Of a stretch of 64,000 nucleotides of DNA, positions 35,859 through 38,639 are shown in pieces. The translations under genes and the position numbers were made by a program. Source of the DNA: a phage. The stretch is from the NCBI GenBank assembly GCA_012474735.1, contig GCA_012474735.1_4085.1; one strand, 5' to 3'. The notes below the pieces were generated by a model. It was not told where the DNA came from, did not search any database, and was given only the letters and a program-made list of their open reading frames with translations. The first letter of the stretch is position 1. The number at the start of each line of letters is the position of its first letter.

Positions 35859-36230
35859 TTATGACATACGCTTATTATGAATGGAATTATGAATGGATTT
35901 TAAATAATTATATAATTTTATCAATCCACTACCAGTAGCTACAAACAGTAGTGCTGTTGGTATCATACATCCAAACATGGTTATTAATTCATGTATTTCC
36001 ATACCATCACTATTTGGTCCCACATCAAATATAACAACCAACACAACACCTAAAATGCTTAGACAATAATATCCCATAAAGACCATAAAAGTGATATATC
36101 CGGCACTTGATTTAATATTACATAACATATTATACACTGGATTAATACAGAAGAAGTATAATAACCATACCAGTGTTCCAGTACTGAACATAATAATTGA
36201 AATAATGGAAAATATCTCACGGTAACTCAT
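35859..36230 (-). CDS. small multi-TM membrane protein
   Basis: hydrophobic segments; membrane-protein array. Confidence 0.55.
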   Translation of the reverse strand: MSYREIFSIISIIMFSTGTLVWLLYFFCINPVYNMLCNIKSSAGYITFMVFMGYYCLSILGVVLVVIFDVGPNSDGMEIHELITMFGCMIPTALLFVATGSGLIKLYNYLKSIHNSIHNKRMS

Positions 36231-36231
36231 A

Positions 36232-36594
36232 TTATTTCCTCATACCCAAACGTTGGTGGATTTCAGAGATCTTTATATACAATAGTACCACAAGGTGCAG
36301 TACTAAACAACATATAATTACGGCTAATACCAATGAACATATCATAAGACCGAAGGTTATTGTATTCAAAGAGGATGTGAACAGTCCAATTATTAATACA
36401 ATAAAACCAAAATTGAATACTGTACCCAACACAGTATATGCTGGACTATATCTCTTTTGGATTACATCATATATATTTGATAATGGTCGCTTATGGAAGT
36501 ACTTCCCAATGCACACGAATGCATTCAGTGAGAAGATAAATGTATACGCCATTACTAGTAATTGACCAACGAAAGATAATTCTATCCCGTTCAT
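36232..36594 (-). CDS. small multi-TM membrane protein
   Basis: trimmed to MNGIELSF start to remove overlap. Confidence 0.5.
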   Translation of the reverse strand: MNGIELSFVGQLLVMAYTFIFSLNAFVCIGKYFHKRPLSNIYDVIQKRYSPAYTVLGTVFNFGFIVLIIGLFTSSLNTITFGLMICSLVLAVIICCLVLHLVVLLYIKISEIHQRLGMRK

Positions 36595-36595
36595 A

Positions 36596-36964
36596 CTAAC
36601 CTCGTTTACGTTTTTTAATTGTACTGTGCATCTTTTCGAAATAGGGAACCAAAACATATTGAACAGTTTGCCAGATAACCATTAGATTATGCACTGCACC
36701 ACCAAGGATACCAAACACTAGAACAATAATTGCCATAATAGGATCACCGTCTACCATACCCCATTTAAAGATATGTAAAATCCAAGCAATGACTAGACAA
36801 AATAAACTAAGCCAATACGTAATGAAAAATCCGGCTTGTAGTTCATAATCATCAGCAATTTCATCGTATACCGTTTCTAAAAATGATACACAAAAGAATT
36901 TACCAATTATAACCACAGTACTAATAAACAACATAGCAGTTAAGATAATAAGAGCAATTTCCAT
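36596..36964 (-). CDS. small multi-TM membrane protein
   Basis: hydrophobic; ends KRKRG. Confidence 0.55.
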   Translation of the reverse strand: MEIALIILTAMLFISTVVIIGKFFCVSFLETVYDEIADDYELQAGFFITYWLSLFCLVIAWILHIFKWGMVDGDPIMAIIVLVFGILGGAVHNLMVIWQTVQYVLVPYFEKMHSTIKKRKRG

Positions 36965-37278
36965 TACATCCCTCGTTTACGCTTTTGATTGCGTCTAAAT
37001 TCTGTTAGTCCACGGCTAATCGGCGGCATCAGACTACATAAAAAAGTAACAGTTGTTGGTAGTAACATCAAGTCAATCATTGCAGTGTTATCTGGTGGAT
37101 CAAAAACCAAAAAATACACACAAGAAACACTAATAATGGTTGAACCGATAAAAGGAATACAAAATTCTTTTATCTGTTTTTCAACATAATCAAACATCTT
37201 GAGTACAAATAAAAATCCAACCCAACACATAATGAAATAGAATGAATACAACGTGTAAATCAATGTTACTATATCCAT
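36964..37278 (-). CDS. small multi-TM membrane protein
   Basis: hydrophobic; ends NQKRKRGM. Confidence 0.55.
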   Translation of the reverse strand: MDIVTLIYTLYSFYFIMCWVGFLFVLKMFDYVEKQIKEFCIPFIGSTIISVSCVYFLVFDPPDNTAMIDLMLLPTTVTFLCSLMPPISRGLTEFRRNQKRKRGM

Positions 37279-37616
37279 TAGTACCTCGCATCAGGAACTT
37301 TAGCACGTAACTTATGAACGACTGGGAACAACAACAAACTTACATATGCAATAGTTGAACCCCAATAGAATACTAATACAATTGGTTCACCATTAGAACG
37401 GAAACCTCTACTAATCATTGAGTAGTGAATAATAGGCATAATCATCGCCAGACCAAACCATGCGTGTAATTTTAATTGCAGCATGTTATCAGCGATGAAT
37501 ACTGAAATTGGTCGTTTAAAGAACCACATCAGAAAGTAGAATCCAGCACTAATAATATAGTACATGGTACTAACTTTCATATACCACGGCAGTAAATCAA
37601 TAAAGTACTCCATCAT
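37278..37616 (-). CDS. small multi-TM membrane protein
   Basis: hydrophobic; C-term RAKVPDARY. Confidence 0.55.
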   Translation of the reverse strand: MMEYFIDLLPWYMKVSTMYYIISAGFYFLMWFFKRPISVFIADNMLQLKLHAWFGLAMIMPIIHYSMISRGFRSNGEPIVLVFYWGSTIAYVSLLLFPVVHKLRAKVPDARY

Positions 37617-37960
37617 TCCTCCGGTATCTTATTTCGAAGTTCAATCATAACACAACAAATTTTAATGGTCAATATAAAAGTTAAACATATCATCCCAAGT
37701 GTGCCGTAAACTGCGGAAAAAGCTGGTAGTACCTTTCCTGTGAGTGTTGCTACAATACATGCAATCAATGTTGATGCAAACAACGATTGATTAATGACAG
37801 AATTCATAAAATCTTCACCATTACGTTTATAGAATTGTCGTTTAAAATACCATCCTAGAAACATAACTACCCAAAATGATACATAAGTTGTTAGAATAAT
37901 CCCTGCAAGTGAATGTGCAACTGGACTACTCCTTAAAAACTCAAGATAAGCTTCAAACAT
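37613..37960 (-). CDS. small multi-TM membrane protein
   Basis: hydrophobic; C-term RNKIPEE. Confidence 0.55.
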   Translation of the reverse strand: MFEAYLEFLRSSPVAHSLAGIILTTYVSFWVVMFLGWYFKRQFYKRNGEDFMNSVINQSLFASTLIACIVATLTGKVLPAFSAVYGTLGMICLTFILTIKICCVMIELRNKIPEE

Positions 37961-38298
37961 TAGAAGTCTCCGCGAATTTTATCTCTACCATGAATAATGA
38001 GATGGATTAAGTATACACCTAACCAAATGAACAACCCAAAGAATACAATATATTGTGAGATTGAGTTCAAGTGAGGATTAGCACAATAAATTAAGTGTGC
38101 CATAAGACCAACAATTGCAAACAAACCTTGAACAATTGTGTAAAGAACTAGTGATGAATTCCTCACTGGATACAGTTTAAAAACAATTTTCTTTTTAAAA
38201 TACCATAGTACTACAACTAGTGCATGATAAAAGAAAAAACCAAACAGATAAATCAAAGTAATACTAATCATTGTATCTGATTTAAAAAATTCTAACAT
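37960..38298 (-). CDS. small multi-TM membrane protein, paralog of 38298..38639
   Basis: MLEFFKSDT start; TAATG overlap with upstream stop. Confidence 0.6.
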   Translation of the reverse strand: MLEFFKSDTMISITLIYLFGFFFYHALVVVLWYFKKKIVFKLYPVRNSSLVLYTIVQGLFAIVGLMAHLIYCANPHLNSISQYIVFFGLFIWLGVYLIHLIIHGRDKIRGDF

Positions 38299-38639
38299 TA
38301 GAATCCCCATTTAAAGTTATCACGAGCATTAATAATAAAATACATAGTACACACCAATAACCAGACGATTAGTCCTGAAAACACAACATATTGTGTAATG
38401 TGTGGTGTGTTATCAATTTGTAACATGTAAATCACATATGTCATCACACCAAATAAAATAAACCCACCTTGTATAATGCTATATACTACTAAGAGTACAT
38501 TATCATACGAATACAATTTAAAAACAACTTTCCTTTTAAAATACCAAAGACTAATTACAATTGAATGATAAAACAAGAATACAAACATGTAAATTAGCGT
38601 GATACCAAGCATTGTATCTGAATTAAAAAACTCAAGCAT
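38298..38639 (-). CDS. small multi-TM membrane protein
   Basis: MLEFFNSDT; clear paralog of the preceding gene. Confidence 0.6.
   Translation of the reverse strand: MLEFFNSDTMLGITLIYMFVFLFYHSIVISLWYFKRKVVFKLYSYDNVLLVVYSIIQGGFILFGVMTYVIYMLQIDNTPHITQYVVFSGLIVWLLVCTMYFIINARDNFKWGF

What the first reader, a model, noticed from the sequence alone, without database searches (positions are those of the whole stretch)
35859..38639. Tandem arrays of small multi-TM membrane proteins
Eight consecutive 104-123 aa hydrophobic proteins (35859..38639) and a second family of three (45059..46094, sharing a C-terminal R-x-N-(I/L/M)-P-E-(K/R) motif also present in 37278..37960) are clear paralog expansions, for example 37960..38298 against 38298..38639. 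Small membrane protein arrays in phages often act in superinfection exclusion, lysis timing or interference with host envelope functions.
Basis: partly seen in the sequence, partly recalled or inferred. Interest (0 to 1): 0.6.

Follow-up and report, generated by a model that had tools for sequence, protein, structure and literature searches.

The report
Conserved array of small three-helix membrane proteins
A giant E. coli phage carries eleven related genes for small three-helix inner-membrane proteins, probably made early in infection; the array is real and conserved across related giant phages, but its function is unknown and nothing about it is exceptional for a phage.

Summary
The window comes from an Asteriusvirus jumbo coliphage, 97-99% identical to JP4, SP27, 121Q and G17. 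Positions 35859-38639 (- strand) hold eight tightly packed genes of 104-123 aa, and 45059-46094 holds three more. Each protein has three hydrophobic helices. The distribution of Lys and Arg indicates an N-terminus-out, C-terminus-in topology.

Only one pair (37960-38298 and 38298-38639) is an obvious duplicate, at 52-55% identity. Profile comparisons and leave-one-group-out models still join all eleven into one divergent superfamily; 37278-37616 is the weakest member. Most array positions have their own ortholog in Klebsiella phage RaK2, so most of the paralogs are old.

The array always lies directly downstream of an NrdC.10-like AAA ATPase gene in RaK2-like phages. The transcription unit carries host-type (sigma-70) promoter signals. 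The genes are under purifying selection (dN/dS 0.1-0.4).

Searches of 1.8 and 5.8 billion proteins found relatives only in this phage clade. Pfam, PADLOC and fold searches gave nothing.

My best guess is early-made inner-membrane proteins that interfere with envelope functions of the host or of competing phages. A canonical holin role is disfavoured. Public records already list these genes as hypothetical or "3-TM membrane" proteins. Interest is modest.

The parts
39506..39540 (-). Combined terminator/promoter cassette (hairpin GGGTTGAC-TTCG-GTCAGCCC, a T-run, then TGCTATAAT). It opens the transcription unit that holds the NrdC.10-like gene and the array.
   Evidence: Five near-identical copies lie on the - strand; the core TTGACTTCGGTCA occurs 11 times against 0.06 expected. 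Putative terminators are annotated at the corresponding intergenic positions in G17.
38707..39477 (-). NrdC.10-like AAA/P-loop ATPase (256 aa), the conserved upstream neighbour of the array.
   Evidence: Pfam AAA PF00004 scores 24.5 bits against a cut-off of 21.2. T4-type nrdC.10 homologs were found in 1310 phage records. This gene directly precedes a 3-TM array in every RaK2-like genome examined.
38669..38697 (-). Sigma-70-like promoter (TTGACA-17-TACTAT) in the 67-nt gap before the first array gene, with a GTACTAC/GTAGTAC inverted repeat in the spacer.
   Evidence: The element is conserved in PBECO4, vB_Ec-M-J and ph0011. This is a consensus match only; no expression data exist.
38298..38639 (-). 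m8: 113 aa, 3-TM. It is the extra copy of the m7/m8 pair and is present in only some Asteriusvirus genomes.
   Evidence: 52-55% identical to m7. The 5' 129 nt are 78% identical at the DNA level. Absent in PBECO4, slurp01, phAPEC6 and vB_Ec-M-J.
37960..38298 (-). m7: 112 aa, 3-TM; ortholog of RaK2 ORF311 and A4_228.
   Evidence: phrog_19454.
37613..37960 (-). m6: 115 aa, 3-TM; ortholog of RaK2 ORF309/310; ends in RNKIPEE.
   Evidence: AF2 model with pLDDT 75.5 and helices at 2-11, 13-40, 48-74 and 79-111.
37278..37616 (-). m5: 112 aa, the least hydrophobic member and the weakest family member; ortholog of RaK2 ORF312.
   Evidence: hhalign M6-M5 gives 94% probability over the full length. It is not recovered by the leave-one-group-out HMM, although its A4 and RaK2 orthologs score 22 bits. 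The WFFKRP motif is shared with m6 at the DNA level (D4).
36964..37278 (-). m4: 104 aa, 3-TM; ortholog of RaK2 ORF313.
36596..36964 (-). m3: 122 aa, 3-TM; ortholog of RaK2 ORF314.
   Evidence: AF2 model with pLDDT 77.7 and helices at 2-23, 27-37, 40-69 and 75-121.
36232..36594 (-). m2: 120 aa, 3-TM.
   Evidence: The start at 36594 has a GAGG Shine-Dalgarno site. hhalign M3-M2 gives 93%.
35859..36230 (-). m1: 123 aa, 3-TM; ortholog of RaK2 ORF315.
35829..35854 (.). Hairpin with an 11-bp stem that closes the array. The T-run lies on the opposite strand, so termination on the coding strand is uncertain.
   Evidence: Annotated as a putative terminator in G17.
46415..46443 (-). Sigma-70-like promoter (TTGACA-17-TATTCT) that opens the unit holding the second cluster.
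45756..46094 (-). n3: 112 aa, 3-TM; ends in RSNIPEK.
45405..45746 (-). n2: 113 aa, 3-TM; ends in RDNLPER.
45059..45403 (-). n1: 114 aa, 3-TM; ends in RKNMPNR.

Best explanation
The eleven genes encode one superfamily of about 110-aa inner-membrane proteins that is restricted to one phage clade.

Shown:
- Each protein has three TM helices, a short acidic N-tail, a basic first loop, a short second loop and a basic helical C-tail. The charge distribution predicts N-terminus in the periplasm and C-terminus in the cytoplasm.
- The family shares a W(F/Y)FK(K/R) motif at the cytoplasmic end of TM1 and an R-x-(N/K)-(I/L/V)-P motif near the C-terminus.
- The main array sits directly after an NrdC.10-like AAA ATPase gene. 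Terminator/promoter cassettes precede that unit and recur through the region, a hairpin closes the array, and start and stop codons overlap or abut at every junction.

Inferred:
- The unit is read by host sigma-70 RNA polymerase, so the proteins are made early and inserted into the host cytoplasmic membrane.

Proposed mechanism (low confidence):
- Each paralog binds a different membrane-resident component. This could be a host inner-membrane protein used by competing phages for DNA entry, or a membrane-acting host defence effector.
- The variable TM2/loop2/TM3 face would provide target specificity and the conserved cytoplasmic motifs would perform a shared task.
- The array would then act as a modular kit for envelope takeover, superinfection exclusion or anti-defence, not as a holin.
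For: Membrane nature and topology:
- Every member has three hydrophobic segments.
- Lys+Arg counts are N-tail 5, loop1 33, loop2 4 and C-tail 44 in the window proteins.
- The same counts in 49 homologs are 19, 137, 25 and 233, and all 49 show the same bias.
- AF2 models of m6 and m3 give three long helices plus a C-terminal extension.

One family:
- hhalign links score 30-57 over the full length and in register, against a maximum of 22.5 for reversed controls.
- Leave-one-group-out HMMs recover held-out window groups at about 15-38 bits, mostly 20-38, against decoys at 12-20 bits; the m5 group is the exception.
- Untrained genomes XbC2 and EJP2 hit the model with 7 and 5 genes next to nrdC.10.

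Real genes: dN/dS is 0.10-0.46.

Early unit:
- A sigma-70 consensus lies upstream of m8 and of the n-unit, and terminator/promoter cassettes recur through the region.
- The related phage CBB was inferred to have an early region marked by RpoD-like promoters (PMC5259590).

Accessory, modular behaviour:
- Copy number varies from about 4 to 9 between genera.
- The m7/m8 copy is polymorphic, and vB_Ec-M-J carries an m8/m7 chimera.
- Mosaicism is gene-by-gene. Against vB_Ec-M-J, m1 is 63% and m4 is 92% identical. Against A4 the array is 31-67% identical next to a 96%-identical nrdC.10.
- The cytoplasmic face and TM1 are more conserved (0.49-0.56) than TM2, loop2 and TM3 (0.34-0.41).

Other points:
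- The phAPEC6 virion proteome table shows no entry between gp010 and gp035c in the part read. By genome position the array should fall in that range; the gene numbers of the array were not checked.
- The neighbourhood is rich in other small secreted or membrane ORFs.
Against: There are no expression, localisation or phenotype data for any member. Timing rests on promoter consensus matches, and the scan found no more such matches than in shuffled sequence overall (66 against 74.9).

There is no similarity to any known exclusion, immunity or anti-defence protein.

The strict conservation of position orthologs and gene order between Asteriusvirus and RaK2, together with translational coupling, would fit a multi-subunit complex at least as well as independent blockers.

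The greater conservation of the cytoplasmic face argues against a purely periplasm-facing exclusion role.
Confidence: 0.35

Rival explanations
1. The paralogs are subunits of one hetero-oligomeric inner-membrane complex built by the phage. It may work with, or be anchored to, the NrdC.10-like AAA ATPase encoded immediately upstream, for example as a channel, translocase or membrane platform. The conserved cytoplasmic motifs would be the docking site.
For: - The ATPase gene directly precedes the array in all RaK2-like genomes examined, covering Asteriusvirus, Alcyoneusvirus, Mimasvirus, Eneladusvirus and the unclassified Munch/Kae01 type. In Munch, Kae01, GAP32, BF and EJP2 the gap is only 1-10 nt.
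- Annotated terminators bracket nrdC.10 plus the array in Munch.
- Position-by-position orthology and conserved order hold between the window and RaK2.
- Overlapping stop/start codons imply coupled translation.
- The cytoplasmic loop and tail are the most conserved parts.
Against: - NrdC.10 is widespread in T4-like phages that have no such array; the downstream nrdC.9 is soluble.
- Array size is flexible (about 4-9), with duplications, losses and chimeras in close relatives.
- A second cluster of three lies 6 kb away in another unit.
- Tight packing is normal in phage genomes.
- Alleles of nrdC.10 and of the array recombine independently.
Confidence: 0.2
2. They are holin or antiholin-like proteins that control lysis timing. 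Size, three TM helices, N-out/C-in topology and a basic C-tail mimic class I holins such as lambda S105.
For: The architecture matches the textbook class I holin description (the holin features come from my own knowledge). No holin was mentioned in the papers on this clade that I searched.
Against: - No member of 48 scanned hits any Pfam holin family, even at E<=1.
- Eleven copies sit in units with early-type promoters, not next to an endolysin or spanin.
- The clade's endolysin is 121Q gp532, with its own N-terminal TM domain, far from gp224-232 (PMC5259590).
- Foldseek against viral models found no significant match; the best holin hits had E of about 5-8.
Confidence: 0.1
3. They are membrane anchors or scaffolds for virion assembly or DNA handling at the inner membrane. 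This would link them to the neighbouring RCC1-like proteins, which are packaged in virions.
For: The array converges on a block of 10-11 RCC1-like genes. Homologs of these are virion proteins in phAPEC6. This juxtaposition is conserved in most relatives examined.
Against: The two blocks are on opposite strands and in separate units. The part of the phAPEC6 virion proteome table that was read lists nothing in the range where the array should lie, although small membrane proteins are hard to detect by mass spectrometry. Early-type promoters do not fit a morphogenesis role.
Confidence: 0.05
4. The ORFs are not functional genes, and the hydrophobic reading frames arise by chance in AT-rich DNA.
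For: None beyond the low GC content (33%).
Against: - dN/dS is 0.1-0.46 with saturated dS in several comparisons.
- Orthologs are kept across five genera.
- Every start has a Shine-Dalgarno site.
- Reversed decoys do not match the family model.
Confidence: 0.01

Closest known systems
The same genes in published RaK2-like jumbo phages (121Q gp224-232, G17_00083-00090, RaK2 ORF309-316, GAP32_522-527)
   Same: They are orthologs or the same family. The window is 97-99% identical to 121Q, G17, JP4 and SP27 across the array. GAP32's annotators already noted '3 transmembrane domains'.
   Different: Public records call them hypothetical or putative membrane proteins, and PHROGs splits them into at least 11 families. 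In the searches I ran, I found no paper that mentions the array, treats the genes as one superfamily, notes the fixed position after nrdC.10, or assigns a function.
Class I holins (lambda S105 / P22 gp13 type)
   Same: About 105-aa proteins with three TM helices, predicted N-out/C-in topology and a charged basic C-terminal tail.
   Different: There is no sequence match to any holin family. The genes occur in many copies, in early-type units and away from the endolysin.
T4 Imm and Sp, lambda SieB, P22 SieA (phage-encoded membrane proteins for superinfection exclusion)
   Same: These are small inner-membrane proteins made from early or constitutive promoters and encoded among host-takeover genes. 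This is the functional analogy the best explanation leans on.
   Different: There is no sequence similarity; a single member hit SieB at E=0.055, which is noise. Those systems are single genes, not arrays of 8 plus 3 paralogs. No exclusion phenotype has been tested.
SdhC/SdhD-type three-helix membrane anchor subunits

Membership tests
RaK2-like phage 3-TM superfamily (defined here) | 100-130 aa with three hydrophobic helices and positive-inside charge bias giving N-out/C-in topology | tested here: met
   All 11 window proteins and all 49 homologs fit.
RaK2-like phage 3-TM superfamily (defined here) | Detectable homology to other groups of the family when the member's own group is left out | tested here: met
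   Ten of the 11 window proteins score 16-38 bits against decoys at 12-20 bits; m8 is the lowest at 16.0 bits. m5 fails this test but is linked by hhalign at 94%. Reversed decoys give no hits.
RaK2-like phage 3-TM superfamily (defined here) | Tandem position directly downstream of the NrdC.10-like AAA ATPase gene | tested here: met
   Met for m1-m8. The same holds in all RaK2-like genomes examined, covering Asteriusvirus, Alcyoneusvirus, Mimasvirus, Eneladusvirus and the unclassified Munch/Kae01 type. n1-n3 lie in a separate unit.
Class I holin | Three TM domains, N-out/C-in, charged C-terminal tail | tested here: met
   Prediction only.
Class I holin | Sequence membership in a curated holin family | tested here: not met
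   Pfam scans of 10 and then 48 members at E<=1 gave no holin family.
Class I holin | Encoded in a late lysis cassette next to an endolysin or spanin | tested here: not met
   The unit has sigma-70-type signals and no lysis gene is annotated in the roughly 9-10 kb on either side in G17. The clade's endolysin is 121Q gp532, against gp224-232 for the array.
Class I holin | Timed, lethal hole formation that releases endolysin | not testable with these tools
   Needs induction and membrane-potential assays.
Superinfection-exclusion / immunity membrane proteins (T4 Imm, Sp; SieA/SieB) | Sequence similarity to a known exclusion protein family | tested here: not met
   No consistent Pfam hit and nothing in PADLOC.
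Superinfection-exclusion / immunity membrane proteins (T4 Imm, Sp; SieA/SieB) | Early expression and inner-membrane location | tested here: inconclusive
   Supported only by promoter consensus and topology prediction. No expression data were found.
Superinfection-exclusion / immunity membrane proteins (T4 Imm, Sp; SieA/SieB) | Blocks DNA entry or plating of a second phage | not testable with these tools
   Needs expression and phage challenge.
PHROGs 27618, 26405, 33258, 27396, 19046, 19454, 19285 | Full-length HMM match | tested here: met
   E=1e-50 to 1e-70 for m1 and m3-m8 and for n3 (n1 matches phrog_19285 only weakly, E=3e-4). m2 has no PHROG. All are annotated 'unknown function'.

The most novel reading that the evidence does not exclude
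The paralogs assemble into a phage-built hetero-oligomeric inner-membrane machine that docks the co-transcribed NrdC.10-like AAA ATPase through the conserved cytoplasmic W(F/Y)FK and R-x-(N/K)-h-P motifs. This would be an ATP-driven channel or translocase installed early in infection, a type of phage organelle not described for non-nucleus-forming jumbo phages.
Probability: 0.1. Interest if true: 0.7.

Novelty: new member of a known kind. Interest (0 to 1): 0.3.

Why it matters
RaK2-like jumbo phages are being developed against E. coli, Klebsiella, Salmonella and Erwinia, yet more than 80% of their genes have no assigned function.

This work turns about a dozen scattered "hypothetical" entries per genome into one defined family. 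The family now has a predicted topology, conserved motifs, a fixed genomic address and a testable set of hypotheses.

If the proteins exclude rival phages or disarm membrane-acting defences, they would bear on the design of phage cocktails and on host range. If they form a complex with the AAA ATPase, they would reveal a new phage membrane apparatus and give the first functional lead for NrdC.10, a gene found in more than a thousand T4-like and jumbo phage genomes.

As it stands the finding is descriptive. It is a typical example of the many small membrane proteins in phage early regions.

Tried and rejected
- Pfam on 10 and then 48 members gave only scattered sub-threshold hits, with no family shared by more than 2 members.
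- PADLOC defence models gave nothing.
- The m8 search (5.8 billion proteins), the 11-paralog profile (1.84 billion representatives) and the 48-member profile (5.8 billion proteins) returned only 6, 18 and 22 proteins. All appear to come from this phage clade: they are close relatives of array genes or carry jumbo-phage source names.
- I tested whether T4-like phages carry a related gene after nrdC.10. They do not: nrdC.9 is soluble and the family HMM finds nothing in AR1.
- PA5oct has an NrdC.10-like domain but no array.
- Notes such as 'Phi92_gp233' in the ph0011 record suggested relatives in phage phi92. The phi92 proteins are soluble and unrelated, so the notes are annotation artefacts.
- Other small TM ORFs in the window (53806-54183, 54632-54958 and others) are not family members.
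- Literature searches for expression or functional data on these genes, on nrdC.10 and on jumbo-phage functional genomics found nothing relevant.
- The Salmonella phage SD-1 and SD-6 records show a truncated m6, but they also have many fragmented genes. I did not treat this as reliable evidence of loss.
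Full report
**Source of the window.** Megablast of 35000-39600 finds Asteriusvirus jumbo coliphages. JP4 and SP27 are 99% identical; G17, Sharanji and 121Q are 97-98%. The array itself (35859-38639) is 97-99.6% identical in about twenty Escherichia and Salmonella phage records and about 85% identical in a second group. In G17 the eight ORFs are annotated G17_00083-00090, 'hypothetical protein', equivalent to 121Q gp224-232.

**Check of the observation.**
- The - strand carries eight back-to-back ORFs of 123, 120, 122, 104, 112, 115, 112 and 113 aa at 35859-38639. Three more, of 114, 113 and 112 aa, lie at 45059-46094.
- Two start codons differ from the longest-ORF reading (36594 and 38298). 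Both are backed by Shine-Dalgarno sites and by the G17 annotation.
- All eleven proteins have GRAVY 0.6-1.0 and three Kyte-Doolittle peaks at matching positions.
- The GAP32 record states '3 transmembrane domains shown using TMHMM 2.0 and Phobius' for six genes of its array, all of which match the family model.
- Nei-Gojobori dN/dS against ph0011, vB_Ec-M-J and A4 orthologs is 0.10-0.46, so these are genes under purifying selection.

**Are they paralogs?** By BLASTP only m7/m8 is obvious (52%, 1e-41). The trio is related at 4e-11 to 8e-6, and the rest is noise-level. PHROGs places the genes in separate families.

I collected the syntenic arrays from G17, RaK2, A4, ph0011, vB_Ec-M-J, fENko-Kae01, Munch, GAP32 and Serratia phage BF. 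Clustering them gave these ortholog groups:

| Window gene | RaK2 ortholog |
|---|---|
| m1 | ORF315 |
| m3 | ORF314 |
| m4 | ORF313 |
| m5 | ORF312 |
| m7/m8 | ORF311 |
| m6 | ORF309 and ORF310 |

Most paralogs therefore predate the split of the two genera. Duplications are lineage-specific: m7/m8 in this lineage and ORF309/310 in RaK2.

Three tests join the groups into one family:
- Profile-profile comparison of group alignments gives full-length, in-register links: N-M78 94%, N-M6 89%, M6-M5 94%, M78-M6 74%, M6-M4 71%, M3-M2 93% and M3-M1 66%. M3, M4 and M6 link to a GAP32/BF group at 71-78%. Link scores are 30-57, against a maximum of 22.5 for reversed-sequence controls.
- HMMs trained with one group left out recover the held-out window proteins at 16-38 bits (most at 20 or more), against 12-20 bits for decoys. 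m5 is the exception; only its orthologs reach 22 bits.
- A family HMM finds 7 and 5 genes beside nrdC.10 in two genomes not used for training (XbC2 and EJP2). It finds none in PA5oct, T4-like AR1 or phi92, none among reversed decoys, and no further member in the window.

**Architecture.**
- Lys+Arg counts are 5, 33, 4 and 44 for N-tail, loop 1, loop 2 and C-tail in the window proteins. In 49 homologs they are 19, 137, 25 and 233, and all 49 show the same bias. By the positive-inside rule this gives N-out/C-in topology.
- AF2 models of m6 (pLDDT 75.5) and m3 (pLDDT 77.7), built from only 11 sequences, show three long helices. m6 adds a short N-terminal helix, m3 adds a short helix in loop 1, and both extend TM3 into a C-terminal helix.
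- The family consensus is ...igwfFk.k.y..iy after TM1 and l..lR.kip.kR at the C-terminus.
- The last 3-5 codons of each gene also carry the next gene's ribosome-binding site. Examples are m6 CCG GAG GAA TGA TG and n2 CCG GAG CGT TGA TATG. n3 keeps P-E as CCT GAA and has its ribosome-binding site further downstream, so the motif is only partly explained by this constraint.
- Within ortholog groups the N-tail, TM1, loop 1 and C-tail are more conserved (0.49-0.56) than TM2, loop 2 and TM3 (0.34-0.41).

**Genomic context.**
- A 35-nt cassette, AAGGGTTGACTTCGGTCAGCCCTTTTTGCTATAAT, occurs five times on the - strand. It is a terminator hairpin that contains a -35 hexamer and is followed by an extended -10. 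Its core occurs 11 times.
- One copy (39506-39540) opens the unit with the NrdC.10-like AAA ATPase gene at 38707-39477 (Pfam AAA above threshold). A 67-nt gap follows with TTGACA-17-TACTAT, which is conserved in PBECO4, vB_Ec-M-J and ph0011. Then come m8 to m1, and finally a hairpin at 35829-35854.
- Five of the seven junctions overlap as TAATG or ATGA.
- In Munch, Kae01, GAP32, BF and EJP2 only 1-10 nt separate nrdC.10 from the first 3-TM gene. Munch's annotated terminators bracket nrdC.10 plus the array.
- The array converges on a block of RCC1-like paralogs (22915-35174), whose phAPEC6 homologs are virion proteins. The phAPEC6 virion proteome table lists nothing between gp010 and gp035c in the part read, and by genome position the array should lie in that range.
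- The trio lies in a second unit that begins with TTGACA-17-TATTCT at 46415-46443.
- Early timing is an inference from these host-type promoters. The same inference was made for phage CBB (PMC5259590). No transcript data were found.

**Distribution and dynamics.**
- m8 alone finds 6 clusters among 5.8 billion proteins. A profile of the eleven paralogs finds 18 among 1.84 billion representatives. A 48-member profile finds 22 among 5.8 billion. The hits are close relatives of array genes or carry RaK2-like jumbo-phage source names.
- Array size ranges from about 4 (Munch/Kae01) to 9 (RaK2).
- m8 is absent from PBECO4, slurp01, phAPEC6 and the vB_Ec-M-J group. The single copy in vB_Ec-M-J is an m8(5')/m7 chimera that keeps m8's upstream region, which indicates unequal crossover.
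- Alleles are mosaic. A4 has a 96%-identical NrdC.10 but array proteins only 31-67% identical. ph0011 shows the reverse, 59% against 73-88%.

**Interpretation.** It is firmly established that this is a clade-restricted superfamily of 3-TM proteins, predicted to be N-out/C-in, arranged in conserved arrays after nrdC.10. Function is not established.
- I favour early-made inner-membrane proteins that interfere with membrane-resident functions of the host or of competing phages (confidence 0.35). This rests on the accessory, mosaic and copy-variable behaviour of the array and on its envelope-rich early neighbourhood.
- A hetero-oligomeric complex coupled to the AAA ATPase is a serious rival (0.2). 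Gene order, position orthology, translational coupling and the conserved cytoplasmic face all fit it.
- Holin or antiholin (0.1) and assembly scaffold (0.05) are less likely.
- Non-genes are excluded.

**Novelty and score.** The genes are already in GenBank as hypothetical or membrane proteins, and the GAP32 record lists their homologs as 3-TM proteins. In the searches I ran I found no paper that mentions the array, treats the genes as one superfamily, notes their ortholog structure or fixed linkage to nrdC.10, or assigns a function. This is a new, better-defined member of a familiar class: small phage membrane proteins of early regions. Interest is 0.3.

Noticed in passing
39506-39540, 40920-40954, 42202-42236, 47110-47144, 53231-53265 (- strand); core also at 1811, 4815, 8853, 41636, 48213, 49823: A repeated 35-nt terminator/promoter cassette, AAGGGTTGACTTCGGTCAGCCCTTTTTGCTATAAT. 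The hairpin stem contains a TTGACT -35 hexamer and its T-tail runs into an extended -10. All 11 cores lie on the - strand, against 0.06 expected by chance. The cassettes appear to punctuate the early region into short units.
   Followed up: partly
22915-35174 (+ strand): A block of 10-11 paralogous RCC1-like genes of 300-430 aa, annotated 'DNA condensation protein' in public records, converges on the membrane-protein array. Their phAPEC6 homologs (gp003-gp010) were detected in virions (PMC7247149, Table 1).
   Followed up: partly
38707-39477: The NrdC.10-like AAA ATPase gene is strongly mosaic within the genus. It is 96-100% aa identical in A4, vB_Ec-M-J and G17 but only 58-59% in ph0011, UE-S1 and CRJP21. 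This pattern is opposite to the divergence of the adjacent array, which implies recombination breakpoints at the gene boundary.
   Followed up: partly
L005 (vB_Ec-M-J) 9839-10177, compared with window 37960-38639: The single m7-type gene of vB_Ec-M-J has an m8-like 5' end and m8's upstream region. This indicates unequal crossover between the tandem copies.
   Followed up: yes
47151-47570, 51564-51785, 53453-53803, 54194-54553; also 41425-41619, 43305-43556, 53806-54183, 54632-54958, 55016-55258: The same - strand region holds several small ORFs with signal-peptide-like N-termini and other small hydrophobic ORFs. None belongs to the 3-TM family. The region looks enriched in envelope-targeted proteins.
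   Followed up: partly
39546-40664 and 42228-42641: Free-standing homing-endonuclease-like genes (annotated HNH in vB_Ec-M-J) sit between the cassettes. The 372-aa ORF has no equivalent at the corresponding position in ph0011, so it is a presence/absence polymorphism next to nrdC.10.
   Followed up: no
2483-10332: About 8 kb has no ORF of 150 aa or more on either strand. It is presumably a run of very small genes. I did not examine it.
   Followed up: no
L004 (ph0011) annotation notes: Notes such as 'Phi92_gp231' and 'Phi92_gp233' on the ATPase gene and on one array gene are misleading. The phi92 proteins of those names are short, soluble and unrelated.
   Followed up: yes
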